Assembly (NCBI GenBank): GCA_028284805.1
Contig: JANQQZ010000084.1
Span: forward strand, 5,248 to 69,247
DNA length: 64,000 nt
Reading direction: 5' to 3'
Origin: Phycisphaerales bacterium
GTDB taxonomy: Bacteria; Planctomycetota; Phycisphaerae; Phycisphaerales; UBA1924
This document shows, one piece after another, positions 2,629 through 62,622 of this stretch. Every line of letters starts with the position of its first letter. Position 1 is the first letter of the stretch. The translations under genes were made by a program, and so were the position numbers. A model generated the notes under the pieces. That model had not been told where the DNA came from, ran no database searches, and saw only the letters and a list, made by a program, of their open reading frames with translations.

Positions 2629-3711
2629 TCAGTTCTCGGCCTCGGACCGCTCATAGACGGCGTAGACCACCGAGAGTTGGGGGGCCGTCAGCCCTTCCCG
2701 ATCGAGCGGACGGCGGAACTCGTCCACCTGCTCGCGGGTGCCGAGCATCGCGTTGAACTGGCTGGCGTCCGAGGCCATCGCGAGCGGGGTCAGCCCCGCG
2801 GCCCGCGCGGCCTCGGGGCCGATCACGGGGCGGACGTCCCCGCTCTGGGCGAGATCGTTGTTGGCTCGCGCGGGCATGCCCCAGTTGTACAGAACCGCGC
2901 GCCCGCTGATCGCGAGAGCCCCCGCGATGCGTGCCGCGGCCTCTTCGGGCGTTGCGCCCAGGGGTTTGTCGATCGTCGTCGGGGCCCGATGGCGGAACTG
3001 CGAGGGGACCGGTTCGACCCGACCCATTGACAGCGCGTTGACGCCCAGGATCAGGTCGAAGGGTTCACCGAGGTCGTCCTCGTCGGCTGGCCAGTTGGTG
3101 TCGAGGATGGTGACGGATCCATCGGGCCCGCCATCGAGCCCGTTGACCCGTCCCTGGTCGCTGGGCGAGTCATAGATGGCGCGGAACCGCTGGCGGTTGG
3201 AGACGATGGTGACATCGGCGCCGTGCCGGGCGAGGAGCCAGGCGTGCGTGACGACCCCGGGGTCGACCAGCAGGATGCGCGCCCCCGCGAGTGCCGAGGG
3301 CTCGGCGAGCGGCGTGCCCGTGACCGCGAGGTCGTAGGCACGGAACTCGATGAAGGGCGCGTCGGCGTTCCAGCCGGCGTAGTACAGCAGCTCGTGGATG
3401 CCCACGAAATCGAGCAGGCGTTGGTCCTCCGCGTCCAGGGCGTGGTACTGCTCGATGGTGTAGGTGCGCTCGCCGAAGCCGCGGGTGCTCCAACGCCAGC
3501 GCCGGATGCGCGGGGGGAGATCGCCGACCGCGTCGACCATGGCGGTGCCTGTCGCGGTGGTCATCCAGGGGCGGACGATCTCGGACCGGACCTGGAGAGC
3601 CTCGGCCATAGACGACCGCTCCGCGAACTGTGAGGGATAGGCGTGGGCGAAGGGCTGGGCGTGTGCTGCGCCAGCCCACGCGAGCAAAGCGACTGCGATC
3701 GGTCGGATCAT
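2629..3711 (-). CDS. secreted hypothetical protein
   Basis: ORF 2629..3777. The start was moved to the internal Met that gives the signal peptide MIRPIAVALLAWAGAAHAQP. I recognise no domain with confidence; ARILLVDPG...PFDLILGVN gives only a weak Rossmann/methyltransferase-like hint. Confidence 0.6.
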   Translation of the reverse strand: MIRPIAVALLAWAGAAHAQPFAHAYPSQFAERSSMAEALQVRSEIVRPWMTTATGTAMVDAVGDLPPRIRRWRWSTRGFGERTYTIEQYHALDAEDQRLLDFVGIHELLYYAGWNADAPFIEFRAYDLAVTGTPLAEPSALAGARILLVDPGVVTHAWLLARHGADVTIVSNRQRFRAIYDSPSDQGRVNGLDGGPDGSVTILDTNWPADEDDLGEPFDLILGVNALSMGRVEPVPSQFRHRAPTTIDKPLGATPEEAAARIAGALAISGRAVLYNWGMPARANNDLAQSGDVRPVIGPEAARAAGLTPLAMASDASQFNAMLGTREQVDEFRRPLDREGLTAPQLSVVYAVYERSEAEN

Positions 3712-3836
3712 TGGAGTCTCCTCGGCGGCGAACATGCAGAGGCTAGGGGACCGAGGGTCGATCAGGCTTGCGGGCATAGATCGTGGGATGTAGACTATGA
3801 CTCATCGATATTCAATTTCTGAAAGGTTTTTGTAAG

Positions 3837-4319
3837 ATGTTGACCGCTAAACACTTACTGTCGTTTGTTCTGGCCCTGTTGCTGGGTGCGGCCGTGATGG
3901 GTTGCGCTTGCAAGATCAAGATGCCCCCGGAGAAGGACGAGCGGACGACTGAGCTTCTTGCGAAGTTCAAGGCCGATCTCAACAAGATCGACGCAAGCGG
4001 CGACATCGAGGCGGACTACAAACGAATTCACAAAGTGCACTTCCCTGAATTGAATGATTGCCACGTGACGCTCTACATGCTGCTTGAACATGCTCGGTGC
4101 CTGATGAATGAGAAGCGGACCTTTGAGGCGGGACAAGAGGCGGCCCGTCACGCTCTCGATATCTCGAACAAATGCCAAAACGCCATGTCGCTGACTCGAC
4201 CGTTCGAGGATCAGTTGACGCTGGACGAGATCCGGGGTATTGAGGGCTCGGATCTGAGTGAGACCACACAGTCACGGATGTTCAAGACTTTGGAACAGGC
4301 GGGGCTTGCACGGCCATGA
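3837..4319 (+). CDS. lipoprotein, hypothetical (predicted helical)
   Basis: 160 aa with a signal peptide and lipobox (LLLGAAVMGC). It lies in visibly lower-G+C DNA, and its stop overlaps the next gene's start (ATGA at 4316-4319). Confidence 0.7.
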   Translation: MLTAKHLLSFVLALLLGAAVMGCACKIKMPPEKDERTTELLAKFKADLNKIDASGDIEADYKRIHKVHFPELNDCHVTLYMLLEHARCLMNEKRTFEAGQEAARHALDISNKCQNAMSLTRPFEDQLTLDEIRGIEGSDLSETTQSRMFKTLEQAGLARP

Positions 4320-6157
4320 TCCGTGCTCTTCTTGGCTCGTTGGTTTATCTCGGCTCGATCCTGCCCGCGTCCGTCGCGGGGCAGGATCAGCCGCGCCTGG
4401 TCGTATTGAGCATCGGGCTCGGGAACTATGCCGATGACGACATGGACTTTGAGATCGTAGAGGACGCTAATTCTGATCGAGCCCTTCCGAGCGATGGAGC
4501 ACGGTGGTTCGGAGAGACAATCGGTGCCGCAGCCGGTGTTTGCCCGATCATTCTGACCGACAACGAGGCGACGACCGGCCGAGTCCGCCGCGAGTTGATC
4601 GACCAGGTCTCTCGACTCCCACCGCGATCGACGGTCCTGCTGTACTTTGGGGGCCACGGCCACCGCGTGCGACACGGGACCAGCGGCACCTCGGATCTTT
4701 ACTTACTGCTCTTTGGCTCGACACAGCAAGAACCGCTCGGGGACGCGATCATGCTGCACGAGCTGCTACTGATGTTCAAGCGTGCGCCCGGGATCAACGC
4801 AATGATCTTCCTGGACTGCTGCTACGCCGGGCAGGACGCCCAGACCCGTTTTGGGCACGCGGCAGATTTTAATGAGCTCGGCAGCCGGGTAGTGCTCTAT
4901 GCGGCGTCGAGCGAATACGAGCGGGCCCATTCGGGTCAATTCGTGAGCGCCCTGAAACGAGTCTGGGCGCAGTCGAGCGATCAGTGTGAGATGCCCCCTC
5001 AGCTTGAACGACTCATCCAGGATGAACTCGCCGATGCCACCACACGGTGCCATCTCTATCTGGGCGAACAGACCGAGATCTGCCTGCGCAACCCGGCCGA
5101 CGCGGCTGGGCTCAAGCTGCTGTGTATTGAGTTCGACGGGGACTTGAACCAGCATCTGACGCTGCTCCGGAAGAACAAGCAGACCGGAGGCTTCGAGGAG
5201 GTCAACGAGATCACCAGGGCGTCGAGTTCGAGACGGACGGGCTACGTCCGGCAGATTCAGAATCAGCCAGCCGAGTACCAGTTGGTGCCCACGCTCGATT
5301 ACCGGCACAGCAAGAAGTACTCGGATGTCGCTGAGCTGCAGATCACCGCAGCGATGCTTGAGGACAAGATTGTTGTATGGAACCCGCGGCTCAAAAAATT
5401 CATCGTCTCGCGTTCGGACAGGCCCGAGATCGAACGGCTAGAGTTCCGCCTTGCGTCCTCGATCGAGCACGGCATGCCGCAGCAAGTTGTGGATGACATT
5501 ACCATTCAGGTGGCCCAAGCCAGGTTCGACGCCGATCCGTTCGACGGCATGGATGATCTCTTCGAGTTGCATGAGAACGACCTGATCCAGACTACGTCCT
5601 TCAAGATCGCTAAGATCGACCGGGACGGCCCCGCGATGCTGGTCGAAGGTCTAGTTCCGGGCGACGCCTTGCCCACGTTTGAAGTGCTACGAGCAAAACG
5701 GCTCACGGCATCGCAGTACGCCACGCTGTTCGAGTCACAGATCGCCTCGTTGAGCAATGACCAAGTCCTCGACACCTTCGCGAGCGACTCGTTCAAACAG
5801 ACCATGATACAGGTACAGGCGCTGGGCGGGCACCAGTTGGTGTACGGCTATGCCAAGGGGCTTGAATCGAAGCTCGTTAATCCCCATGCCCGTGCCGAGG
5901 TTCTATCGATCGGCGCCCTGAGCGCGGCGCTCGTGGGAGAGACCGGCGTGGCCGAGGAGTGGAGCGAGGATGTTATCAGGGAGTCGACCGTGCAGGATCC
6001 GGTGTACAGGATGGCCTTGTTTACCAAGGGGCTCTCGATGCAGTACCACGAAGGCGGGGACACCGAGGACACCGAGACGGAACGCATCAAGGACTTCTGG
6101 TCGGCTCACTTTCCTGGAGTCAGCGAGTACGGAGTATCCGTAGACGGAGACGACTGA
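4316..6157 (+). CDS. caspase-like (peptidase C14 family) protein with signal peptide and a ~430-aa uncharacterised C-terminal region
   Basis: 613 aa. The signal peptide is MIRALLGSLVYLGSILPASVAGQ. The caspase-fold order is RLVVLSIGLGNY, then the His site LLYFGGHGH (H114, nt 4655-4657), then the Cys site IFLDCCYAG (C168/C169, nt 4817-4822), then VVLYAASS. I recognise nothing in the remainder of the protein. Confidence 0.8.
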   Translation: MIRALLGSLVYLGSILPASVAGQDQPRLVVLSIGLGNYADDDMDFEIVEDANSDRALPSDGARWFGETIGAAAGVCPIILTDNEATTGRVRRELIDQVSRLPPRSTVLLYFGGHGHRVRHGTSGTSDLYLLLFGSTQQEPLGDAIMLHELLLMFKRAPGINAMIFLDCCYAGQDAQTRFGHAADFNELGSRVVLYAASSEYERAHSGQFVSALKRVWAQSSDQCEMPPQLERLIQDELADATTRCHLYLGEQTEICLRNPADAAGLKLLCIEFDGDLNQHLTLLRKNKQTGGFEEVNEITRASSSRRTGYVRQIQNQPAEYQLVPTLDYRHSKKYSDVAELQITAAMLEDKIVVWNPRLKKFIVSRSDRPEIERLEFRLASSIEHGMPQQVVDDITIQVAQARFDADPFDGMDDLFELHENDLIQTTSFKIAKIDRDGPAMLVEGLVPGDALPTFEVLRAKRLTASQYATLFESQIASLSNDQVLDTFASDSFKQTMIQVQALGGHQLVYGYAKGLESKLVNPHARAEVLSIGALSAALVGETGVAEEWSEDVIRESTVQDPVYRMALFTKGLSMQYHEGGDTEDTETERIKDFWSAHFPGVSEYGVSVDGDD

Positions 6158-6181
6158 TCAGCCTGTGCCGACCGGGGACGC

Positions 6182-7591
6182 TCACCCCTTCGCCATCGCC
6201 CCGATCGAGACGGTGACCGGCACGTGGGCCGGCCTGACGCGGGTCTCGAACTCGTCGCGGTACTTGTTCATGATCGTCCGCAGGGCCCAGTTGTTGCCGT
6301 CCGCCAGGCCGCAGATGGTCGTGCCTGGCATCGAGCCCATGCTGGTGCCGACCTCAAGGGCCAGGTCCAGGTCCTTGGTCGTCGCGTCGCCCTCTTCGAT
6401 CCGGCACATCAGCTGGTACAGCCAGCCCGAACCCTCCCGGCAGGGCGTGCACTGACCGCAGCTCTCGTGCTTGAAGAACCGGGCGATGTTCCGGGCGACG
6501 GCGACCATGTCCGTGTCCTCATCGAACACGGTCGGGCACGCCGTGCCCAGCCCGAGCACGTTGTATTTGCGCCCGATGTCGAAGTCCATCTCGGCCTCGT
6601 ACTGATCGGGCCCGAGGATGCCCATGGACACGCCGCCCGCGATGGCGCCCTTGAACTTCTTGCCGTTTCGCATGCCGCCGCAGTAGTCCTCGACGATCGT
6701 GCGCAGGGGGATTCCCAGGTCGAACTCGAAGACGCCCGGCTCGTTGACGTGCCCGGAGACGCCCATGAGCTTCGTGCCGTAGCTGGGAGGCCCGCCGACG
6801 GTCGATTCGCAGCCCTGCTTGGTGAACCACTCGCCGCCGTGCTGGATGATGTCGGGCAGGTGCTGCAGGGTCTCGACGTTGTTGATGATGGTGGGCTTGC
6901 CGAACAGGCCCTTGAGCGCCGGGAACGGGGGCTTGATGCGGGGCCAGCCGCGCTTGCCCTCGAGCGCTTCGAGCAGTCCCGTCTCCTCGCCGCAGATGTA
7001 CGCGCCCGCGCCGCGGTGGACGTAGCAGTCGACGCGGAACTTCTCGCCGCCCGTGTTCTCGCCCGACAGCTGCAGGCAGTTCTCGCCGAAGATGCCGTGC
7101 TCGTAGGCCTCCTTGAGCGCCTCCTCGAGCACGTGCGCCTGGTGGTGGTACTCGCCCCGGATGAAGATGTACGCCTTGGTGAGCCTGCACGCGTGGCAGC
7201 AGATCGCGATGCCCTCGAGCAATGCGTGCGGGTCGAAGTCCATCAGCAGCCGGTCCTTGAAGGTCCCGGGCTCCGACTCGTCGGCGTTCACCGCCAGGTA
7301 CCGCTCGGCGCCCGGTTCGCCCGGCGTCTTGCCCTCGGGCACCGGGGGCAGGAAGGTCCACTTCAGCCCCGTCGGGAAGCCCGCGCCGCCCCGCCCACGC
7401 AGCATCGAGGTCTTGACCTCTTCGGTCACGTCCTCGGGCTTCATGCCCAGCGCCTTGCGGAGACCCTCGTAGCCCCCGGTCCCGACGAACTCGTCGTATC
7501 CCACGACATGGCGATCACTGATCTTGCCGTAGGGAGGCGTGGGGATGCGCTTCAGGAGGTAGTGGCGGTCGATCGAGGGCTGCCAGGACAT
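6182..7591 (-). CDS. nuoF: NADH-quinone oxidoreductase subunit F
   Basis: 469 aa with GRGGAGFPTGLKW (FMN/NADH site), YICGEETGLLEALEG and the 4Fe-4S motif ESCGQCTPCREG. Confidence 0.95.
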   Translation of the reverse strand: MSWQPSIDRHYLLKRIPTPPYGKISDRHVVGYDEFVGTGGYEGLRKALGMKPEDVTEEVKTSMLRGRGGAGFPTGLKWTFLPPVPEGKTPGEPGAERYLAVNADESEPGTFKDRLLMDFDPHALLEGIAICCHACRLTKAYIFIRGEYHHQAHVLEEALKEAYEHGIFGENCLQLSGENTGGEKFRVDCYVHRGAGAYICGEETGLLEALEGKRGWPRIKPPFPALKGLFGKPTIINNVETLQHLPDIIQHGGEWFTKQGCESTVGGPPSYGTKLMGVSGHVNEPGVFEFDLGIPLRTIVEDYCGGMRNGKKFKGAIAGGVSMGILGPDQYEAEMDFDIGRKYNVLGLGTACPTVFDEDTDMVAVARNIARFFKHESCGQCTPCREGSGWLYQLMCRIEEGDATTKDLDLALEVGTSMGSMPGTTICGLADGNNWALRTIMNKYRDEFETRVRPAHVPVTVSIGAMAKG

Positions 7592-41483: not shown

Positions 41484-43211
41484 TTACAGCCGACTCGCGG
41501 CCGACGTCGGGTCGCGGCTCGCGCTCGCGGTCGCCGAGGGATCGATCAGCGTGCTCGGGTCCGCGGGGAGCAGCACACGGAACGTCGCACCACCGCCCCG
41601 GGTCTGTTCGACCCAGACCTCGCCCCGGTGGTCCTCGATGATCCGCTTGGTCACCGCGAGACCGAGGCCCGTGCCGCGCATGCCCTTGGTGGTGTGGAAG
41701 GGCTCGAAGATCCACTCGCGTCGCTCGGAGGCGATGCCGGGCCCGTTGTCGATGATCGCGATCTCGACCTCGGCCGAATCGCCCCGCGCGATGCGCGAGC
41801 CCGTCTTGTGCCCGTCCTCGATCGGGCGCCCCTTGGGGAAGTACCCCACGCGTACCGTCACCGTCCCCGACTTGGGCTCCACCGCCTCCACCGCGTTCGT
41901 CATCAGGTTCATCATCGCCTGGTGCATCAGGTTCGGGTCAAGGGGCAGCGGCGGGATGTCCGGGTCCACGTCTACGAGCAGCACTACCTGACGCGTCGAG
42001 CACAGGCCCTCGAGCAGCTGCGCGCAGTCGTCCAGCAGAGGCCCGAGCTTGGTCAGCTCGATCTCGATGTTCCGCTGGCGGCTGAACGCCAGCATGTTCA
42101 GTGTCAGCCCCATGATCCGGTCGAGGTTGCGCTTGAGGATCGACCACCCGCCCTTGGCGATCTTCAGGTCGTCCTTGCGCAGCCCCATCTCGACGACATC
42201 CGCCCCGCCGCGCAGGCCCTGCAGGATGTTCTTGATCGAGTGCGAGAGGCTCGCGACCGTCTCGCCGATGACCGCGAGACGCTCCTTGTGGATCTGGTCG
42301 CCCGTCAGCTCCAGGTTCGCCATCGCCAGGCCCGTCTGCTGGCCGACCGCGTTCAGCAGAGCGAGCTGATCCGCCGTGAACGTGTAGTTCACGATCGAGC
42401 TGTCGATGTAGATCGCCCCGAAGACACGGTCGCGGAAGACGATCGGCGCACACATCGCGCTGCGGATGCCGAACCGCTGGACGCTGTCGCCCGCCTTGAA
42501 CCGAGGGTCGGCCATCGCGTTCGAGCTCAGCACCGCCTGGCGCTTGCTCATCGCGTGCTGGAGGATCGTCTGGCTGATCTTGATCTTCTTGTCTTCCTCG
42601 TCCGTCGGCTCGGCCATGAACTTCACCGCGACCGGCTTGGGCGAGTGGTACTTGTCGGGCGCGATCATCATGACGCCCCGCTCGGGCTCGAACTGGTCGA
42701 AGACGGTTTCCAAGACCTCCGCCAGCAACTCCTGCTCGTCGAGCGCGTCCGTCGCGATCGCCGACACACGGAACAGCATCTTCAGGTGCTCGTTCGCCGC
42801 CAGCCTGGGCTCGGGCTCGGCCATCAGCACCGAGTCCTCGTTGCTCGCGAGCGCGTGCTCGATGTCCGCGTCGATCTCGTCGGGGCGCACCAGCTCGACG
42901 ATCTCCGACCCGGGATCGGTGAGCACCCCGCCGAACGCGAGCACCGTCGACCCGACCCGGATCTGATCCCCCGCGCGGAGTTTCACGCGTGAGGCGATCT
43001 GCGTCCCGTTCACCCACGTCCCGTTGTGGCTCTTCAGGTCGCGCACGTACCACGACCCGCCGTCGGGCGTTAGCTCGGCGTGCCGACGGCTCACCGTGTT
43101 GTCCGTGATGGGCAACGCCTCCGACGACCGCCCGATCAGCTGCGGCTCGTTGTCCGGCAGGCTGAACTGCTTGCCCTTCTGCGGGCCCTGGACGACGGTG
43201 AGGAGGAGCAT
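41484..43211 (-). CDS. cytoplasmic sensor histidine kinase: FHA + GAF + HisKA + HATPase_c
   Basis: The FHA domain is IGRSSEALPITDNTVSRRHAEL...VRDLKSHNGTWVNG. A central GAF-like segment follows. The H-box is SLSHSIKNILQGL, and N, G1 and G2 boxes are present (MMNLMTNAVEA, DNGPGI, GTGLGLAV). It has no TM helix. Confidence 0.9.
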   Translation of the reverse strand: MLLLTVVQGPQKGKQFSLPDNEPQLIGRSSEALPITDNTVSRRHAELTPDGGSWYVRDLKSHNGTWVNGTQIASRVKLRAGDQIRVGSTVLAFGGVLTDPGSEIVELVRPDEIDADIEHALASNEDSVLMAEPEPRLAANEHLKMLFRVSAIATDALDEQELLAEVLETVFDQFEPERGVMMIAPDKYHSPKPVAVKFMAEPTDEEDKKIKISQTILQHAMSKRQAVLSSNAMADPRFKAGDSVQRFGIRSAMCAPIVFRDRVFGAIYIDSSIVNYTFTADQLALLNAVGQQTGLAMANLELTGDQIHKERLAVIGETVASLSHSIKNILQGLRGGADVVEMGLRKDDLKIAKGGWSILKRNLDRIMGLTLNMLAFSRQRNIEIELTKLGPLLDDCAQLLEGLCSTRQVVLLVDVDPDIPPLPLDPNLMHQAMMNLMTNAVEAVEPKSGTVTVRVGYFPKGRPIEDGHKTGSRIARGDSAEVEIAIIDNGPGIASERREWIFEPFHTTKGMRGTGLGLAVTKRIIEDHRGEVWVEQTRGGGATFRVLLPADPSTLIDPSATASASRDPTSAASRL

Positions 43212-43223
43212 GACAAATCGTAG

Positions 43224-44405
43224 CTACTGACCACCAGCATGCAGCCTCGAAGCACAGGCCGCCTCTGTAGAAAGCAACTCCATGCTCAGGGGCAGTGTTC
43301 CGGCCCAACCGGCTCTGAGTTCCTCGCGAGTGGGCAGGTACTTCTCATCAGCGTCGGCTGCGATGCGAAATGCCGGATACTGAATGTCCAGAGCCGCCAC
43401 AAACCGTGCTTCATCCCGCACAACAACCATCAATCGATCAGCGTCGCCACGCAATGTCGATAAGCTTCCGAGTCGAGTTCGATGCTGTCTCCGCCAGGTA
43501 CCTTCTGTGCTTTGGTAGTGAAACTCGGTGACATAGCCGTACGGGAGCATGATCTGTGCCTCGAAACTCGAGAACCCATAGCTGACGAACTCGCCTTGCA
43601 CGGGACGCGGAATGAGATTCTCGCGGCGCCAGCCAATCCTCTCGATCTCGGTGAACCGGATGTAGTCTGATACGATTCTGGTCGCTTCGTGCGCGAGAAT
43701 GGTTTCTGGGAGGCTTCGGCCTCGAACCCACCGAGTAATGAGATCGCGAGAGACGTGGCGTGTGCGCGAAATGCTCCTTTCTCGCAAACCTCGGTCTTCA
43801 GGTATCGCAAGTCGCCACCAGCGATACGCGACGATCCGACAAAGAGGGCCGATCTCCCCGTACCGACCCCTTGAAAGCAGTTCCTCCGCAGCAGATGCTG
43901 AGTCACCGGGCATGTCGACGCGGTTCTCCTGATCCATCAACTCGCGCGCGAATCGATGAAACTTGTCCTGCTCAGCCAAGCTCACGTCCGTTGCAGGATC
44001 CAAACGCATCAGCTCCCAATCGAAGTGTCTGTAGTGGTCGTCCGAAAGCCGCATTGCCCATGGACCGTACAAGATCAATGCCGTTGTCGGCATCACGCCC
44101 CACGCGCCTCGCTCCTGCACCCGCGGCACGACCCACAGCCCATAGCCACCAACCACCATCACCAGCAGCAGCGCCCACGCCGAAACCCACCGCCGCCTCG
44201 TCCGCGTCAGATGCTTCGGCTTCGCGTGCGTCTTCCCACACTCCGGGCACGCCACCGGCACATCGCCCGCACCGTCCATGTCGTACCAGCACCGACAGCA
44301 CCGCCTCTGCCCCCGCGGCCGATCCCAGAACAGCGCCCACAGCACGCCGACGAACGCCAGCAGCGCGACCGCGTACCCCGACCAGTGCCAGAACCACTCG
44401 GGCAT
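43224..44405 (-). CDS. TM-zinc ribbon-TM membrane protein, array member P1 (C-terminal domain type A)
   Basis: 393 aa. The N-terminal module is MPEWFWHWSGYAVALLAFVGVLWALFWDRPRGQRRCCRCWYDMDGAGDVPVACPECGKTHAKPKHLTRTRRRW followed by a second TM helix. The C-terminal domain is homologous to that of P4. Confidence 0.8.
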   Translation of the reverse strand: MPEWFWHWSGYAVALLAFVGVLWALFWDRPRGQRRCCRCWYDMDGAGDVPVACPECGKTHAKPKHLTRTRRRWVSAWALLLVMVVGGYGLWVVPRVQERGAWGVMPTTALILYGPWAMRLSDDHYRHFDWELMRLDPATDVSLAEQDKFHRFARELMDQENRVDMPGDSASAAEELLSRGRYGEIGPLCRIVAYRWWRLAIPEDRGLRERSISRTRHVSRDLITRWVRGRSLPETILAHEATRIVSDYIRFTEIERIGWRRENLIPRPVQGEFVSYGFSSFEAQIMLPYGYVTEFHYQSTEGTWRRQHRTRLGSLSTLRGDADRLMVVVRDEARFVAALDIQYPAFRIAADADEKYLPTREELRAGWAGTLPLSMELLSTEAACASRLHAGGQ

Positions 44406-44411
44406 GAAGGC

Positions 44412-44417
44412 AGTCTA
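44412..44417 (-). promoter_or_regulatory. -10-like hexamer TAGACT, 6 nt upstream of the P1 ATG
   Basis: The minus strand reads TAGACT-GCCTTC-ATG. Confidence 0.4.
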
Positions 44418-44453
44418 TCGAAACCAGCAGCCCGCCCGAAGCAAACCAGCAGA

Positions 44454-45404
44454 CTACGGCGCGATCGGAAGCCGCTCGACTCGCTCGGGCTCGAACATGA
44501 ACCCACGGCCGGACGCCGGGCGGTACACAACCACGAGCCGGCAGTACTCGCCCTGATCATCGAAAAGACGGTATAGAATCCTGATGCGCCGAGGCTGATC
44601 CGTGTGCGGCATGAACGGTCGCCCGAGTATGCGCCGATCTGGTCGATAGGTAAGCATCCGACTTTCATCAAAGCTGAGTGGGTCGTCATCGTCTGAAAGA
44701 AATACGAAGCGAATCTCGCCGGACAAACTCATCCCGCTCTGCGGAAACTGATTGAGGTACTCCCAGTCGCTACCGGCAAGGCCAACGGCCTCGACGCTGA
44801 ACGCCCAAGTCGCCCAATCGGCGGCCCGCTCGCGGCTCAGCCTGCCGAACCACACCTCGTGCGCCAGGACCGCGTCGACAGCCGACGCTTCCGTCTGACT
44901 GGGCGCGCCCTGGCTTCTCCGCCACCCCGTCAGATACCAGTACTCGACGCCGACGGATTTCGCCCAGTCGGGGAGCCGGTCCCACCGCTGCCCCCAATAC
45001 CACAGCGCCGGGCTCCCATGGATCGCACCGACTGGAACGTCGTTCTCGTGAGATATCAGCGGCGCGATAGCAACCATCAGCGTTGTTGGGAGCAATCCTG
45101 GTGGGCCGTCCGAAGCAACCCGCGGCACCACCCACAGCCCGTACCCGCCAACCACCATCACCAACCCGAGCACAACCGCGCGCCCCCACCGACGACGCGT
45201 CCTCGTCAGGTCTTTCGCTTTCGCGTGCGCCTTGCCACACTCCGGACAACTCGCCGGCAGATCACCGACACCGCCCAGGTCGTACCAGCACCGCCGGCAC
45301 CGCTTCCTCCCGCGTGGTCGATCCCAGACGAGCGCCCACACGACACCGACGAACGAAACCAGCGCCACCGCGTACCCAGACCAGTGCCAGATCCACTCGG
45401 GCAT
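44454..45404 (-). CDS. TM-zinc ribbon-TM membrane protein, array member P2 (C-terminal domain type B)
   Basis: 316 aa. It has the same N-terminal module (…CRRCWYDLGGVGDLPASCPECGKAH…TRTRRRW… plus TM2). The Trp-rich C-terminal domain cannot be aligned by eye with P1, P3 or P4. Confidence 0.8.
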   Translation of the reverse strand: MPEWIWHWSGYAVALVSFVGVVWALVWDRPRGRKRCRRCWYDLGGVGDLPASCPECGKAHAKAKDLTRTRRRWGRAVVLGLVMVVGGYGLWVVPRVASDGPPGLLPTTLMVAIAPLISHENDVPVGAIHGSPALWYWGQRWDRLPDWAKSVGVEYWYLTGWRRSQGAPSQTEASAVDAVLAHEVWFGRLSRERAADWATWAFSVEAVGLAGSDWEYLNQFPQSGMSLSGEIRFVFLSDDDDPLSFDESRMLTYRPDRRILGRPFMPHTDQPRRIRILYRLFDDQGEYCRLVVVYRPASGRGFMFEPERVERLPIAP

Positions 45405-45410
45405 GGACTC

Positions 45411-45416
45411 AGTCTA
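45411..45416 (-). promoter_or_regulatory. -10-like hexamer TAGACT, 6 nt upstream of the P2 ATG
   Basis: The minus strand reads TAGACT-GAGTCC-ATG. Confidence 0.4.
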
Positions 45417-45430
45417 CTGAAAGCAACCGC

Positions 45431-46462
45431 TCAATCGACGACCTCAACCGCGATCGGATCCGCCTCCCACGACTGCACATCCAATTCTGCGTACGACTCG
45501 AGCACACCGGGCCGGTACGCCACGATCCATTTCCGCGTCACGCGGAAGTCCGGCTCGCGCACCCGGATCTGGTACCGCACCTCGACGCCCTCCTGCCACA
45601 CCGGATCGAAGTCGGCGAGCGGGTCCTCGCTGTCGGGGTTACCGCCGGTCGCCCACCCTCCGCTGCCGCTGATCATGGTGTAGCGGGGCGAGACGCCGTC
45701 CGCGCGGAGCATCCGCCAGTCGAGCCGCCACCCGCGAGGGATCACGATGCCGCGGTTCGACCAGGCCTGCTGCCTCGGGTGCTCCAACCAGATCCGGTCG
45801 CCGCGCGTGTCCATCCGACCAACAAGGGGCACATCGATCAAGCGTTGACCAACCGCCGAGTGCACCACCCGCCGCAGCATTGCTTCCGGCAGATTTGACT
45901 GCACGACGAGTTCCTCTCGGCACCACTGCACGAGCCGAGGCTCATCGTGCTGCCCGACCGGTTCCGGGCTCCATGCCCCGAACCAGCGGTACGCGACACC
46001 ACCCAGGACCTTCGGCATGTCGTAGCACCGGCGCCGTAGTTCTGACCCGTAGGTTGCCCCCCGAAACGCGGCATGACGCCCCGATGCACCCGGCGAACCC
46101 TCTGCCGCCTGAATCACAGGTGCGAAAGCAATCAACGCCGACGTTGGCACCACGCCAACCCACCCCTGCTCCTGCACCCGCGGCACGACCCACAGCCCAT
46201 ACCCACCAACCACCATCGCGAAGAACAGCGCAGCCGCACGCCACCACCGACGACGCGTCCTCGTCAGGTCCTTCGCTTTCGCGTGTGCCCTGCCACACTC
46301 CGGGCAGCTCGCCGGAAGATCACCGACACCGCTCATGTCGTACCAGCACCGCCGGCACCGCTTCCGCCCACGCGGGCGATCCCAGACGAGCGCCCACAGG
46401 ACGCCGACGAACGCCGCCAGCGCCACCGCGTACCCAGACCAGTGCCACACCTCTGCAGGCAT
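45431..46462 (-). CDS. TM-zinc ribbon-TM membrane protein, array member P3 (C-terminal domain type C)
   Basis: 343 aa with the same N-terminal module and a third, distinct C-terminal domain. Confidence 0.8.
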   Translation of the reverse strand: MPAEVWHWSGYAVALAAFVGVLWALVWDRPRGRKRCRRCWYDMSGVGDLPASCPECGRAHAKAKDLTRTRRRWWRAAALFFAMVVGGYGLWVVPRVQEQGWVGVVPTSALIAFAPVIQAAEGSPGASGRHAAFRGATYGSELRRRCYDMPKVLGGVAYRWFGAWSPEPVGQHDEPRLVQWCREELVVQSNLPEAMLRRVVHSAVGQRLIDVPLVGRMDTRGDRIWLEHPRQQAWSNRGIVIPRGWRLDWRMLRADGVSPRYTMISGSGGWATGGNPDSEDPLADFDPVWQEGVEVRYQIRVREPDFRVTRKWIVAYRPGVLESYAELDVQSWEADPIAVEVVD

Positions 46463-61789: not shown

Positions 61790-62512
61790 TCAGCGTCGTC
61801 GCCGAACCGCCAGCGCGCCACCAAGCCCGAGGACCAGGCACGAAGCCGGTACCGGTATCACAGTCGTCGTAAACGAGTACTGGCCACGCCCTCTGTCGGT
61901 GCCACGGGCCTGAAGCCAGTATGTGCCCGGGTCCAGGATTCCCGTCACTGAGCCCGAGCCCATTCCGCCTCCAATATCGCCGATATCAAGACCAGTAAAG
62001 ACAGGACCGTTGGCACTGTCCCAGAGCGCATACCAAGTGCCCCCCGTATCGTTGTCGTAGTACACGTCTGTTTGTGCCATCACGAATTCGACCGGCGACT
62101 CGATCGTAAAGTAGAACCACGCTCCGCCGCCGTAGCCGGTCGGCTTCGGCTGACTGAACTGAGCAATCCGATGAGATTCGATCGACATCGTGATGGACAT
62201 GACGTCGCCGTTCTGAACCAAATCGATCTCGTTGTGGTGCTCGAAGTAGTCGTGGGGGAAATCATTCACCCCGCCCGTCACGAACCGATCGAACGGCAAC
62301 AACTCTGTCCCGCCGATGTACTCGTACGATTCATTCCCAACAGAATGAAAGACCGGGATGCCGTACATGTCGTACGTCACGCCGTCCCATTCGAGAATGT
62401 CCGGCATCATCGCGTTGATCCGGACCTCGTCGATCGTCACCTGACCGGCCGCCGTGCCCGCCGACATCAGCACCAGGGCGAGACTCTTCATGTTCATGGC
62501 CAGCCCTTTCAT
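61790..62512 (-). CDS. PEP-CTERM-type sorting-domain protein, hypothetical
   Basis: It has a signal peptide (MKGLAMNMKSLALVLMSAGTAAGQ) and the C-terminus VIPVPASCLVLGLGGALAVRRRR. G+C is lower than the flanks. The ATG at 62512 is preceded by TAATAT plus 6 nt (hexamer at 62519-62524). Confidence 0.75.
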   Translation of the reverse strand: MKGLAMNMKSLALVLMSAGTAAGQVTIDEVRINAMMPDILEWDGVTYDMYGIPVFHSVGNESYEYIGGTELLPFDRFVTGGVNDFPHDYFEHHNEIDLVQNGDVMSITMSIESHRIAQFSQPKPTGYGGGAWFYFTIESPVEFVMAQTDVYYDNDTGGTWYALWDSANGPVFTGLDIGDIGGGMGSGSVTGILDPGTYWLQARGTDRGRGQYSFTTTVIPVPASCLVLGLGGALAVRRRR

Positions 62513-62622
62513 CACAAGATATTAGTGGTCTAAGCGATACAATTATATGTCAATATTTAGAATACACAAGATGATACTTCCCGATTGAGACACGACGTAC
62601 ACAATCCCGATCACAACAAATC

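What the first reader, a model, noticed from the sequence alone, without database searches (positions are those of the whole stretch)
3780..6160. Lower-G+C two-gene island: lipoprotein plus exported caspase-like protease with a large unknown C-terminal region
Between two high-G+C genes the composition drops visibly. For example, the 60-nt line starting at 3781 is about 35% G+C and a line within the caspase gene is about 50%, compared with about two-thirds elsewhere. These are hand counts of single lines only.

The island holds a 160-aa lipoprotein (3837-4319) whose stop overlaps the start of a 613-aa protein (ATGA).

That protein has a signal peptide and a clear peptidase C14 core: RLVVLSIGLGNY, the His in LLYFGGHGH, and the Cys in IFLDCCYAG. 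About 430 aa that I cannot assign follow.

Bacterial caspase homologs are mostly cytoplasmic components of signalling or conflict systems. An apparently exported one, translationally coupled to a lipoprotein and apparently horizontally acquired, is atypical. It could be a two-component envelope system, with protease plus inhibitor, chaperone or tether. No integrase, tRNA or flanking repeats mark the island.
Basis: partly seen in the sequence, partly recalled or inferred. Interest (0 to 1): 0.65.

Follow-up and report, generated by a model that had tools for sequence, protein, structure and literature searches.

The report
Lipoprotein plus exported caspase-like protease cassette
A planctomycete picked up a small two-gene cassette: a membrane-anchored lipoprotein and, coupled to it, an exported caspase-like protease. 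The lipoprotein belongs to a rare undescribed family that nearly always sits just upstream of an exported protease, so the two probably work together, but how is not yet known.

Summary
ORFs 3837-4319 (160 aa) and 4316-6157 (613 aa) overlap by ATGA. They form the lowest-G+C 2.4 kb of the window (58.4% against 67.8%; GC3 0.70 and 0.76 against 0.91±0.02).

The host is a Phycisphaerales MAG. In its closest relatives nuoF and the flanking gene are 55 bp apart, or hold other cargo (a Fic gene, a histidine kinase). The pair is therefore an insertion at a variable site.

The 613-aa protein has a signal peptide and a very divergent metacaspase-type C14 domain (His114, Asp167, Cys169). Its 360-aa C-terminal region has no credible relative among 1.84 billion representative proteins.

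The lipoprotein belongs to a rare, unannotated family of about 15 clusters. Predicted features are a four-helix bundle, an invariant lipobox Cys and two further invariant Cys.

In 7 of 8 informative contexts this family sits immediately upstream of an exported protease. Five are trypsin-like with Asp189. Two are signal-peptide caspases: this window and L092 (31% identical).

So this is a conserved lipoprotein-plus-exported-protease cassette with interchangeable protease class. My best guess is a potempin-like guard or inhibitor. A protease-processed lipoprotein effector is nearly as likely. Exported bacterial caspases are already known.

The parts
2629..3711 (-). Left flank (not part of the cassette). 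Conserved secreted protein of unknown function. In relatives it lies directly downstream of nuoF on the same strand.
   Evidence: tblastn synteny. The start at 3711 (MIRPIAV...) matches the L004 ortholog start and the 360-aa gene call. No Pfam hit.
3712..3836 (.). Divergent intergenic region at the left island edge. Its A+T-rich part (3781-3840) is 35% G+C. It presumably carries promoters for the cassette and for the now orphaned flank operon (inferred).
   Evidence: Sequence and composition. No sigma-70 consensus match was found, so promoter function is not shown.
3837..4319 (+). Gene for the 160-aa lipoprotein, a member of a rare unannotated family.
   Evidence: ORF. Family found by exhaustive phmmer and profile search. 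No consistent Pfam, NCBIfam or PADLOC family. The AlphaFold2 core (residues 25-117) is a four-helix bundle with block-mean pLDDT 72-92. No Foldseek PDB match.
3837..3905 (+). Lipoprotein signal peptide and lipobox (MLTAKHLLSFVLALLLGAAVMG-C23).
   Evidence: Translation. Cys23 is invariant and preceded by a lipobox in all 11 members of alignment A1 (further members in A2). Hydropathy check.
3909..3929 (+). Conserved segment C25-K-I-K-M-P-P just after the lipid anchor. Family motif is C-x-I-x-P-P, where x after the Cys is K or R in 7 of the 11 A1 members. Cys25 is invariant and a probable disulfide partner of Cys88 (inferred).
   Evidence: Alignment A1 has invariant C23, C25, P30, D74 and C88. 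Coordinates checked.
4098..4100 (+). Codon of invariant Cys88 in helix 3 (family motif LNDxNxxLYxLLxAxxC).
4316..4319 (+). ATGA stop/start overlap, implying translational coupling of the two genes.
   Evidence: Sequence. The L092 pair is similarly tight, with 2 nt between stop and GTG start.
4316..6157 (+). Gene for the 613-aa exported caspase-like (metacaspase-type C14) protease.
   Evidence: ORF and translation. NCBIfam caspase_w_EACC1 E 1.7e-12. PADLOC 'caspase' E 4.3e-11. Pfam C14 18.8 bits. L092 homolog is 31% identical, E 9e-32, and carries a Pfam C14 hit.
4316..4381 (+). Predicted Sec signal peptide (MIRALLGSLVYLGSILPASVA|G).
   Evidence: Heuristic n-h-c analysis. The same feature is present in the L092 caspase and in all trypsin-type partners. 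No trained predictor was available.
4391..5071 (+). Caspase/metacaspase-like catalytic domain (residues 26-252).
   Evidence: Profile hits. The three-sequence profile has T. brucei MCA2 (4afr, E 0.0084) and A. thaliana metacaspase-4 (6w8s, E 0.0096) as its top PDB matches. Plasmid tblastn finds three weak matches, two of them under genes annotated as caspase family protein.
4655..4657 (+). Codon of predicted catalytic His114 (LLYFGGH114GH).
   Evidence: Aligned to HYSGHG in the MCA2 alignment; TbMCA2 His158 by my residue numbering. Invariant in window, L092 and P0002.
4814..4822 (+). Asp167-Cys168-Cys169. Cys169 is the predicted nucleophile. Asp167 is the predicted S1 residue of Arg/Lys-specific C14B enzymes.
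   Evidence: Aligned to the FDC(A)HSG stretch of the crystallised TbMCA2 variant; Asp211/Cys213 by my residue numbering. Asp211 is listed as an S1-pocket residue in PMC4357240.
5072..6154 (+). C-terminal region of about 360 aa with no detectable relatives. Low-confidence prediction: an unassigned segment (253-368), then a helical part (369-605).
   Evidence: Exhaustive phmmer of 1.84e9 representatives finds only itself plus junction and repeat noise. No Pfam, NCBIfam, PADLOC or PHROG hit. No PDB hit. No similarity to the trypsin partners. AlphaFold2 pLDDT 34. GC3 of 0.78 and the unbroken frame show it is coding.
6182..7591 (-). Right flank (not part of the cassette). nuoF, convergent with the caspase gene. 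Its stop lies 24 bp from the caspase stop.
   Evidence: Pfam Complex1_51K, SLBB and NADH_4Fe-4S. Sequence. 94% identity to Phycisphaerales and Planctomycetota MAGs.

Best explanation
What it is (confidence about 0.8). A 2.4-kb, horizontally acquired two-gene cassette inserted at a variable site downstream of nuoF in a Phycisphaerales genome. It encodes two translationally coupled, exported proteins:
- a small lipoprotein with a predicted four-helix bundle and a probable disulfide;
- a signal-peptide-bearing, highly divergent metacaspase-type cysteine protease (His114/Cys169, with S1 Asp167 predicting cleavage after Arg or Lys) that carries an orphan C-terminal region of about 360 aa.

The lipoprotein family is a dedicated partner of exported proteases. 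Elsewhere its downstream gene is a trypsin-like serine protease with Asp189, so also Arg/Lys-directed. The protease class has been swapped while the partner was kept.

How it most likely works (inferred, confidence about 0.35-0.4). The lipoprotein is made first and anchored in a membrane facing the periplasm. There it binds and holds in check its co-translated protease, protecting the producer's own envelope until the protease is released or activated. This is the logic of the potempin/KLIKK-peptidase pairs of Tannerella forsythia. The candidate contact element is the conserved Pro-rich segment C25-K/R-I-x-P-P, probably stapled by a disulfide and lying next to the anchor. It would offer a basic residue to an Arg/Lys-specific S1 pocket of either protease class.

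Shown: gene structure, composition, synteny, family membership of the domains, conserved pairing.
Inferred: export, disulfide, P1 specificity, physical interaction, inhibition.
For: Island:
- Composition and GC3 are outliers.
- The site is empty in L004 and holds other cargo in L006, L011 and L003.

Export of both proteins:
- Invariant lipobox Cys.
- An n-h-c N-terminus in the window caspase, the L092 caspase and all four trypsin partners. The cytoplasmic-type relative P0002 lacks it.
- No longer ORF is possible upstream of 4316.

Caspase identity:
- NCBIfam E 1.7e-12 and PADLOC E 4.3e-11.
- The profile's best PDB matches are metacaspases, with His and Asp-Cys-Cys aligned.
- Asp at position C-2 marks Arg/Lys-specific C14B enzymes, against Gln in caspases (PMC4357240).

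Pairing:
- Lipoprotein followed by Trypsin/Trypsin_2 in L083, L084/L085/L089, L086, L087/L088 and the P0007 contig.
- Lipoprotein followed by Peptidase_C14 with a signal peptide in L092 (lipoprotein 29% and caspase 31% identical to the window's).
- The trypsin partners carry DTC[HK]GDSGGP, that is Asp189.
- The two partner classes share nothing detectable outside the catalytic function. Whatever the lipoprotein recognises is therefore likely tied to the active site or its specificity.

Precedent: potempins are lipoproteins of 98-132 aa encoded immediately upstream of secreted peptidases of different catalytic classes, and they inhibit them. One fold type (OB) inhibits both metallo- and serine peptidases (PMC9890683).
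Against: - No interaction, inhibition or export has been tested.
- The lipoprotein is predicted helical. Potempins are beta-barrels, and it matches no known inhibitor fold.
- The K/R after Cys25 is present in 7 of the 11 members of alignment A1, not all.
- Trypsin-linked members carry an Arg-rich C-terminal tail at the position that is low-confidence in the window model. This looks more like a cleavable substrate than an inhibitor.
- The closest curated caspase family is the EACC1-associated type, whose small partner is a protease-activated toxin, not an inhibitor.
- One family member (L093) has no adjacent protease.
- Only two caspase-type pairs are known, and the second is cut by a contig end.
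Confidence: 0.38

Rival explanations
1. Protease-processed lipoprotein effector. This would be an envelope-located analogue of the cytoplasmic protease-effector conflict modules (EACC1-caspase, Pepco/Trypco-trypsin, gasdermin-protease). The lipoprotein is a latent effector, such as a membrane-active helical protein or a peptide precursor. Its partner protease cuts it after Arg or Lys. The orphan C-terminal region of the caspase is the sensor that licenses cleavage.
For: - The architecture matches Kaur et al. 'System 4': a 5' small membrane-associated protein, then a 3' protein with an N-terminal caspase and a variable C-terminal domain (PMC7159879).
- The best curated hit of the caspase domain is caspase_w_EACC1. 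PADLOC 'caspase' also hits.
- In those systems one effector family pairs interchangeably with trypsin-like, caspase-like or S8 proteases, and the small partners are activated by site-specific cleavage (PMC12642450). The trypsin/caspase swap seen here is the same pattern.
- Trypsin-linked lipoproteins have an Arg/Lys-rich stretch before a last short helix, at the position that is low-confidence in the window model.
- Some contexts are conflict or mobile regions: an RHS toxin, ParE, a transposase.
Against: - The lipoprotein shows no similarity to EACC1, Trypco or any PADLOC model.
- Both proteins carry export signals, whereas the described modules act in the cytoplasm.
- The trypsin-type partners have no sensor domain, only a signal peptide, an N-terminal region of about 100 aa and the protease.
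- The caspase scores 47 bits against a 140-bit cut-off for the EACC1-associated subfamily.
- The window locus sits among housekeeping genes, not in a defence island.
- No viral relatives were found.
Confidence: 0.3
2. Adaptor or tether. The lipoprotein recruits the protease to a membrane and activates it or presents substrates to it. The precedents are helical lipoproteins such as NlpI for Prc and LbcA for CtpA (from my own knowledge of those systems, not checked here).
For: - Helical-bundle lipoprotein.
- Conserved adjacency and translational coupling with exported proteases.
- The protease itself has no membrane anchor after signal-peptide cleavage.
Against: - The caspase-type and trypsin-type partners share no detectable non-catalytic domain that an adaptor could grip.
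- To my knowledge the known adaptor lipoproteins are TPR proteins that are not encoded next to their protease.
- The bundle is small (about 90 aa), with no repeat signature.
Confidence: 0.15
3. No functional link. The two genes are merely co-transferred neighbours, or the caspase-like protein is an inactive pseudo-protease used as a binding scaffold.
For: - The family is very small, about 15 clusters.
- One member is solo.
- The caspase domain falls below Pfam's threshold.
- Pseudo-orthocaspases are common in bacteria. Dyad conservation is 64% in Planctomycetes (PMC3501461).
Against: - ATGA overlap.
- 7 of 8 informative contexts have a protease immediately downstream on the same strand, across very different genomes.
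- His114, Asp167 and Cys169 are intact and conserved in L092 and P0002.
- Lipoprotein and caspase have diverged in parallel, 29% and 31% identity to the L092 pair.
Confidence: 0.07

Closest known systems
Potempin / KLIKK-peptidase pairs of Tannerella forsythia (Ksiazek et al. 2022, PMC9890683)
   Same: A small lipoprotein (98-132 aa there; 123-160 aa for full-length members here) is encoded immediately upstream of, and co-expressed with, a secreted peptidase. Partners of different catalytic classes occur. The logic is protection of the producer's envelope.
   Different: - Potempins are beta-barrels (OB or eight-stranded). This family is predicted to be a four-helix bundle and has no sequence or Foldseek similarity to them.
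- The peptidases here are trypsin-like or caspase-like, with no KLIKK C-terminal domain or T9SS signal.
- Inhibition has not been shown here.
EACC1-caspase two-gene conflict system (Kaur et al. 2020, 'System 4', PMC7159879; Evans et al. 2025, PMC12642450)
   Same: A 5' small hydrophobic-N-terminus protein is followed by a 3' protein with an N-terminal caspase domain and a variable C-terminal region. The best curated profile hit of the caspase is the EACC1-associated subfamily.
   Different: - The small protein is not EACC1: there are no profile hits, it has a lipobox, and it is a helical bundle rather than a TM helix with alpha+beta extensions.
- The caspase has a signal peptide.
- It scores far below the subfamily cut-off (47 against 140 bits).
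- The small-protein family mostly pairs with simple secreted trypsins that lack sensors.
Trypco/Pepco-trypsin protease-effector modules
   Same: A small uncharacterised protein family is defined by co-occurrence with a trypsin-like protease gene.
   Different: There is no similarity to any PADLOC model or to any curated Pfam or NCBIfam family. Whether those libraries hold Trypco/Pepco models was not verified. Both partners are exported here. The described modules are cytoplasmic and fused to sensors.
Prokaryotic metacaspases/orthocaspases with an N-terminal signal or TM helix (Asplund-Samuelsson et al. 2012, PMC3501461)
   Same: A C14B-type domain with a His/Cys dyad and an acidic S1 residue, placed behind a single N-terminal hydrophobic helix. 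This architecture has already been counted (46 of 671).
   Different: This one is much more divergent (below the Pfam cut-off). It has an orphan 360-aa C-terminal region and a dedicated lipoprotein partner, which that survey did not describe.

Membership tests
Peptidase family C14 (caspase/metacaspase, clan CD) | Significant sequence homology to the C14 catalytic domain | tested here: met
   - NCBIfam caspase_w_EACC1 E 1.7e-12; PADLOC caspase E 4.3e-11.
- The three-sequence profile hits metacaspase MCA2 (E 0.0084) and metacaspase-4 (E 0.0096) as its top PDB matches.
- Homolog L092 carries a Pfam PF00656 hit.
- Caveat: the window protein itself scores 18.8 bits against Pfam PF00656, below the 21.4-bit gathering cut-off.
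Peptidase family C14 (caspase/metacaspase, clan CD) | Catalytic His and Cys at the ends of the conserved strands (GHG ... DxCxxG) | tested here: met
   H114 in YFGGHG and C169 in LDCCYAG align to HYSGHG and to the FDC(A)HSG stretch of T. brucei MCA2. Both are invariant in the three relatives.
Peptidase family C14 (caspase/metacaspase, clan CD) | Caspase/haemoglobinase fold with a superposable dyad | tested here: inconclusive
   AlphaFold2 with a two-sequence alignment gave mean pLDDT 34. The strand-helix order fits the fold, but the model is unusable for superposition. No further structure jobs were available.
C14B subtype (metacaspase/paracaspase/orthocaspase, Arg/Lys-specific) | Acidic S1 residue two positions before the catalytic Cys (Asp211 in TbMCA2, Asp462 in MALT1; Gln in caspases) | tested here: met
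   Asp167 aligns to the Asp of TbMCA2's FDC(A)HSG stretch, which is Asp211 by my residue numbering. Asp211 (TbMCA2), Asp462 (MALT1) and Gln184 (caspase-7) are listed as S1 residues in PMC4357240. Their position two residues before the catalytic Cys is from my own knowledge. Actual specificity is not testable here.
EACC1-caspase two-gene conflict system | 5' gene encodes an EACC1 domain | tested here: not met
   No Pfam, NCBIfam or PADLOC hit for the window lipoprotein or any of the 10 relatives. Predicted architecture is a lipobox plus a four-helix bundle, against a conserved TM helix with alpha+beta extensions.
EACC1-caspase two-gene conflict system | 3' gene: N-terminal caspase of the EACC1-associated subfamily plus a variable C-terminal domain | tested here: inconclusive
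   The domain order matches. NF047832 is the best curated hit but scores 47.3 bits against a 140-bit cut-off. The protein has a signal peptide, which the description of the system does not include.
Potempin / KLIKK-peptidase system | Small lipoprotein ORF immediately upstream of a secreted peptidase gene | tested here: met
   for the window. for relatives.
Potempin / KLIKK-peptidase system | Beta-barrel (OB or eight-stranded) inhibitor fold; peptidase with a KLIKK C-terminal domain | tested here: not met
   The lipoprotein is predicted all-helical with no Foldseek match. The protease ends ...GVSVDGDD, with no KLIKK motif. The pair is therefore analogous to this system, not a member of it.
Potempin / KLIKK-peptidase system | The lipoprotein specifically inhibits the downstream peptidase | not testable with these tools
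   Needs biochemistry or a confident complex model.
Bacterial lipoproteins (Lgt/LspA substrates) | N-terminal signal peptide ending in a lipobox [LVI][ASTVIM][GAS]-C | tested here: met
   The window has LLGAAVMG-C23. The Cys is invariant and all 11 members of alignment A1 have a lipobox (further members in A2). h-region hydropathy is 2.77. No trained predictor (SignalP or LipoP) was available.
Genomic island (horizontally acquired insertion) | Atypical composition and absence from the syntenic site of close relatives | tested here: met
Genomic island (horizontally acquired insertion) | Integrase, tRNA target or flanking direct repeats | tested here: not met
   No tRNA. No credible flanking repeats. 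No recombinase ORF lies between 3712 and 6181. The insertion mechanism is unknown.

The most novel reading that the evidence does not exclude
The pair is an extracytoplasmic counterpart of the protease-effector immune modules (EACC1/Pepco/gasdermin logic). An exported caspase-like or trypsin-like protease would cleave a dedicated lipoprotein in the envelope, releasing or activating a membrane-active or signalling fragment. The orphan C-terminal domain of the caspase would license this by sensing an external cue such as phage adsorption, a competitor or envelope damage. That would be regulated, caspase-driven proteolytic activation operating outside the cytoplasm in bacteria, with a new effector family.
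Probability: 0.2. Interest if true: 0.8.

Novelty: new variant of a known kind. Interest (0 to 1): 0.5.

Why it matters
Three things would matter if this holds.

1. It defines an unannotated lipoprotein family whose only recognisable trait is a dedicated partnership with exported proteases of two unrelated folds that appear to share Arg/Lys specificity. That is a natural 'domain-swap experiment' on how a small partner controls, or is controlled by, a protease.

2. It gives a concrete, synthesisable two-gene system for asking what exported bacterial metacaspases do. These have been counted in surveys, but I found no functional account of the exported ones in the papers read here.

3. If the partner is an inhibitor, it would be a new inhibitor fold able to serve both serine and clan CD cysteine proteases. 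If it is a substrate, proteolysis-gated effector activation would extend to the cell envelope.

The limits are real. The family is very rare, known only from metagenomes, and nothing has been tested.

Tried and rejected
Searches that found nothing useful:
- Word-indexed homology searches of both proteins returned only self plus one weak caspase hit, P0002.
- Single-sequence PDB search of the whole protein and of the C-terminal region found no caspase or other meaningful hit.
- PHROGs gave nothing.
- Scans of viral contigs for both proteins found no relatives, so there is no phage link.
- Rfam, tRNA, repeat and promoter/terminator scans of the island were uninformative.

Structure:
- AlphaFold2 of the 613-aa protein with the only eligible alignment (2 sequences) gave pLDDT 34. 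I did not use it for fold search.
- Foldseek of the lipoprotein model against PDB gave only chance helical matches, all with E above 1.

Comparisons and weak hits:
- hhalign of the trypsin partners against the caspase C-terminal region found no shared module.
- EntV-family bacteriocin hits to two lipoprotein relatives score 13-15 bits and cover the signal peptide. I rejected them as noise.
- P0004 and P0013 from the exhaustive search are a chimera-junction hit and a tandem-repeat hit. I rejected both.
- A plasmid 'caspase family protein' (Pseudoroseomonas) has a different architecture and context, so it tells nothing about the pair.

Technical failures and method notes:
- The first metagenome scan with the full family alignment failed because no conserved block was found. 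The subgroup alignment returned only 3 loci.
Hits were assigned by query coordinates.

Idea rejected: that the N-terminal hydrophobic segments are internal TM helices of longer proteins. No upstream in-frame start exists.

Full report
**1. The observation**

The two ORFs exist as described. They are 3837-4319 (+, 160 aa) and 4316-6157 (+, 613 aa), and they overlap in ATGA. No earlier in-frame start is possible for the second gene.

The composition drop is real and is the strongest in the window.
- 3780-6160 is 58.4% G+C against 67.8%. It is the lowest 2.38-kb stretch, about 3.7 SD below the mean.
- The line at 3781 is exactly 35% G+C. The lowest line in the caspase gene is 48%.
- Third-position G+C is 0.70 and 0.76 against 0.913 ± 0.024 in 28 neighbouring genes.
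- No tRNA, Rfam element, integrase or credible flanking repeat marks the segment.

**2. Where it sits**

NuoF (6182-7591, minus strand) is 94% identical to NuoF of several Phycisphaerales/Planctomycetota MAGs. In those relatives the order is nuoF, then a conserved secreted protein of unknown function, then ybeY, then corC, all on one strand.
- In L004 the nuoF stop and the next start are 55 bp apart.
- In the window the same two genes are separated by 2.47 kb carrying the cassette in the opposite orientation. The caspase stop lies 24 bp from the nuoF stop. A 125-bp divergent intergenic region lies at the other end.
- The same site holds a hybrid histidine kinase in L006, a low-G+C Fic-domain gene in L011 and a decayed Fic remnant in L003.

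The cassette is therefore an insertion at a variable site in an otherwise housekeeping neighbourhood. The mechanism of insertion is unknown.

**3. The 613-aa protein**

- *Signal peptide.* The N-terminus (MIRALLGSLVYLGSILPASVA|GQ) has the n-h-c layout of a Sec signal peptide. No trained predictor was available.
- *Catalytic domain.* Residues about 26-252 are a very divergent caspase-type domain.
  - Pfam C14 reaches only 18.8 bits against a cut-off of 21.4. NCBIfam caspase_w_EACC1 gives E 1.7e-12 and PADLOC 'caspase' gives 4.3e-11.
  - tblastn against plasmids finds three weak matches, two of them under genes annotated as caspase family proteins.
  - A three-sequence profile (window, L092, P0002) has T. 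brucei metacaspase MCA2 (E 0.0084) and Arabidopsis metacaspase-4 (E 0.0096) as its best PDB matches. GSU0716 and MALT1 follow.
- *Active site.* In that alignment YFGGH114G falls on HYSGHG and LD167-C168-C169-YAG falls on FDC(A)HSG of the crystallised variant. By my numbering these are TbMCA2 His158 and Asp211/Cys213. Asp two residues before the nucleophile is the S1 residue of Arg/Lys-specific C14B enzymes, where Asp-specific caspases have Gln (PMC4357240; the C-2 spacing is from my own knowledge). I therefore predict, as inference, an active, basic-P1 metacaspase-like enzyme.
- *Fold.* Superposition of the dyad could not be tested. The only eligible alignment had two sequences and AlphaFold2 returned pLDDT 34.
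- *C-terminal region.* Residues 253-613 are an orphan.
  - An exhaustive phmmer pass over 1.84 billion representatives found only the protein itself plus two artefacts.
  - Pfam, NCBIfam, PADLOC, PHROGs and PDB gave nothing.
  - The region is clearly coding (GC3 0.78).

**4. The lipoprotein**

It has a lipobox (LLGAAVMG-C23). The same exhaustive search found about ten weak relatives of 123-154 aa, at 25-41% identity and E 1e-7 to 1e-4. A profile search added a few more. In total there are about 15 clusters in the collections searched.
- The family alignment has invariant C23 (lipid-anchor Cys), C25, P30, D74 and C88. Its motifs are C-x-I-x-P-P (x is K or R in 7 of the 11 aligned members) and LNDxNxxLYxLLxAxxC.
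- AlphaFold2 with nine family members models residues 25-117 as a four-helix bundle with block-mean pLDDT 72-92. The C-terminal tail is low-confidence.
- Foldseek finds no PDB match.
- No member consistently hits Pfam, NCBIfam or PADLOC.

This is an undescribed family.

**5. The key comparative result**

| Context | Gene downstream of the lipoprotein, same strand |
|---|---|
| L083 | Trypsin/Trypsin_2 serine protease (truncated before the catalytic Ser) |
| L084/L085/L089 | Trypsin/Trypsin_2 serine protease |
| L086 | Trypsin/Trypsin_2 serine protease |
| L087/L088 | Trypsin-like serine protease (identified by the family alignment; no Pfam call) |
| P0007 contig | Unknown 478-aa gene, then Trypsin_2 |
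| L092 | Peptidase_C14, starting 2 nt after the lipoprotein stop |
| L093 | None (solo lipoprotein) |
| Window | Caspase-like protease |

- The trypsin-type partners all begin with a signal peptide. The three intact ones carry DTC[HK]GDSGGP, that is Asp189, which indicates Arg/Lys specificity.
- The L092 caspase gene is cut by the contig end at residue 239. It has its own signal peptide and is 31% identical to the window protein over residues 1-238, with motifs FIYFAGHG and ILDCCYSG (E 9e-32). Its lipoprotein is 29% identical to the window's.
- Other contigs were too short to be informative.
- The trypsin-type and caspase-type partners share nothing detectable beyond being exported proteases.

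The cassette is 'lipoprotein plus exported protease' with the protease class swapped.

**6. How it probably works**

*Shown:* tight coupling, export signals on both proteins, conserved pairing, intact catalytic residues, and a shared predicted P1 preference of the two protease classes.
*Inferred:* everything about the interaction.

I rank the explanations as follows.

(a) Guard or inhibitor, about 0.38. This copies the potempin/KLIKK logic. There, small lipoproteins encoded immediately upstream of secreted peptidases of different classes inhibit them and protect the outer membrane (PMC9890683). The Pro-rich C25-K/R-I-x-P-P segment, probably stapled by a disulfide, is a candidate substrate-like wedge.

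(b) Protease-processed effector, about 0.30. This is the logic of the EACC1, Pepco and MBL modules. There, one small-partner family pairs interchangeably with trypsin- or caspase-type proteases and is activated by cleavage (PMC7159879 section 33; PMC12642450). In its favour are the EACC1-type affinity of the caspase domain, the variable C-terminal region that could be a sensor, and the Arg-rich tails of the trypsin-linked lipoproteins. Against it are the export signals, the absence of sensors on the trypsin partners, and the lack of any similarity to EACC1 or Trypco.

(c) Adaptor or tether, about 0.15. This is weakened because the two partner classes share no non-catalytic domain.

(d) No functional link or a pseudo-protease, about 0.07.

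**7. Comparison with what is known, and novelty**

Exported prokaryotic caspase homologs are already documented. A 2012 survey found 46 of 671 with a single N-terminal helix and 30 assigned as extracellular (PMC3501461). That part of the finding is not novel. The same survey reports no lipoprotein partner.

Membership tests gave these results.
- C14/C14B: sequence homology, dyad and S1 Asp are met. The fold is untested.
- EACC1 system: not a member, because the small protein is not EACC1.
- Potempin system: analogous, but not a member, because the fold differs and there is no KLIKK domain.

I rate it a new variant of a known kind. It is a secreted protease with a dedicated upstream lipoprotein, but with a new lipoprotein family, a cross-class protease swap, and an orphan C-terminal domain on a highly divergent metacaspase.

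**8. Verdict**

The feature is real, horizontally acquired, rare and uncharacterised. The mechanism is open between two attractive models that simple experiments can separate. Interest is 0.5.

Noticed in passing
window 43224-46462 (-): Three tandem paralogous ORFs of 393, 316 and 343 aa. They share an N-terminus (MPEW[FI]WHWSGYAVAL..WDRPRG..RCxRCWYDM..CPECGK.HAK: a TM segment plus a zinc-ribbon-like CxxC...CxxC) and a second TM segment. Their C-terminal halves are divergent. The 3' end of the array is a lower-G+C patch (about 0.59-0.60 at 43000-43500).
   Followed up: no
window 61790-62515 (-): The second low-G+C patch (0.57) holds a 241-aa ORF. It has a signal peptide and a C-terminal PEP-CTERM-like sorting tail (..VIPVPASCLVLGLGGALAVRRRR).
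   Followed up: no
L011 11550-12875; L003 11720-12115: At the same nuoF-downstream site, relative L011 carries a low-G+C (56%) 441-aa Fic-domain gene with motif HPFCDGNGRTAR. L003 carries a decayed fragment of the same gene and lacks the conserved flanking gene. The site is an insertion hot spot in this clade.
   Followed up: partly
L006 11559-13253: Relative L006 has a 564-aa hybrid histidine kinase/response regulator of native G+C at the same site.
   Followed up: no
L083 4551-5774: The trypsin-type partner in this locus ends at ...AAAPKE*, before the DSGGP catalytic-serine motif. It also has a long low-complexity N-terminal insert. It may be a pseudogene or an assembly error.
   Followed up: no
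L084 2131-7320: A 1729-aa RHS/YD-shell polymorphic-toxin gene lies about 680 bp upstream of the lipoprotein-trypsin pair. ParE (L083) and a transposase-like gene (P0007 contig) occur near other pairs. This suggests that some pairs sit in conflict or mobile regions.
   Followed up: no
window lipoprotein residues 134-155; P0012 (L092 5006-5458): The two caspase-linked lipoproteins share a tail motif (I-x-x-SDLS...F..LE..G). It is absent from the Arg-rich tails of the trypsin-linked subgroup. It could be partner-specific.
   Followed up: no
window 41484-43211 (-): A 575-aa protein whose sequence looks like an N-terminal FHA-like domain fused to a histidine-kinase core (judged by eye; no domain search was run). 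It lies next to the paralog array.
   Followed up: no
window 2629-3711 (-): A conserved secreted protein of about 360 aa with no Pfam family. It is tightly linked to nuoF-ybeY-corC across Phycisphaerales. In the window it is cut off from nuoF by the insertion, so it must be transcribed from the island's edge.
   Followed up: partly
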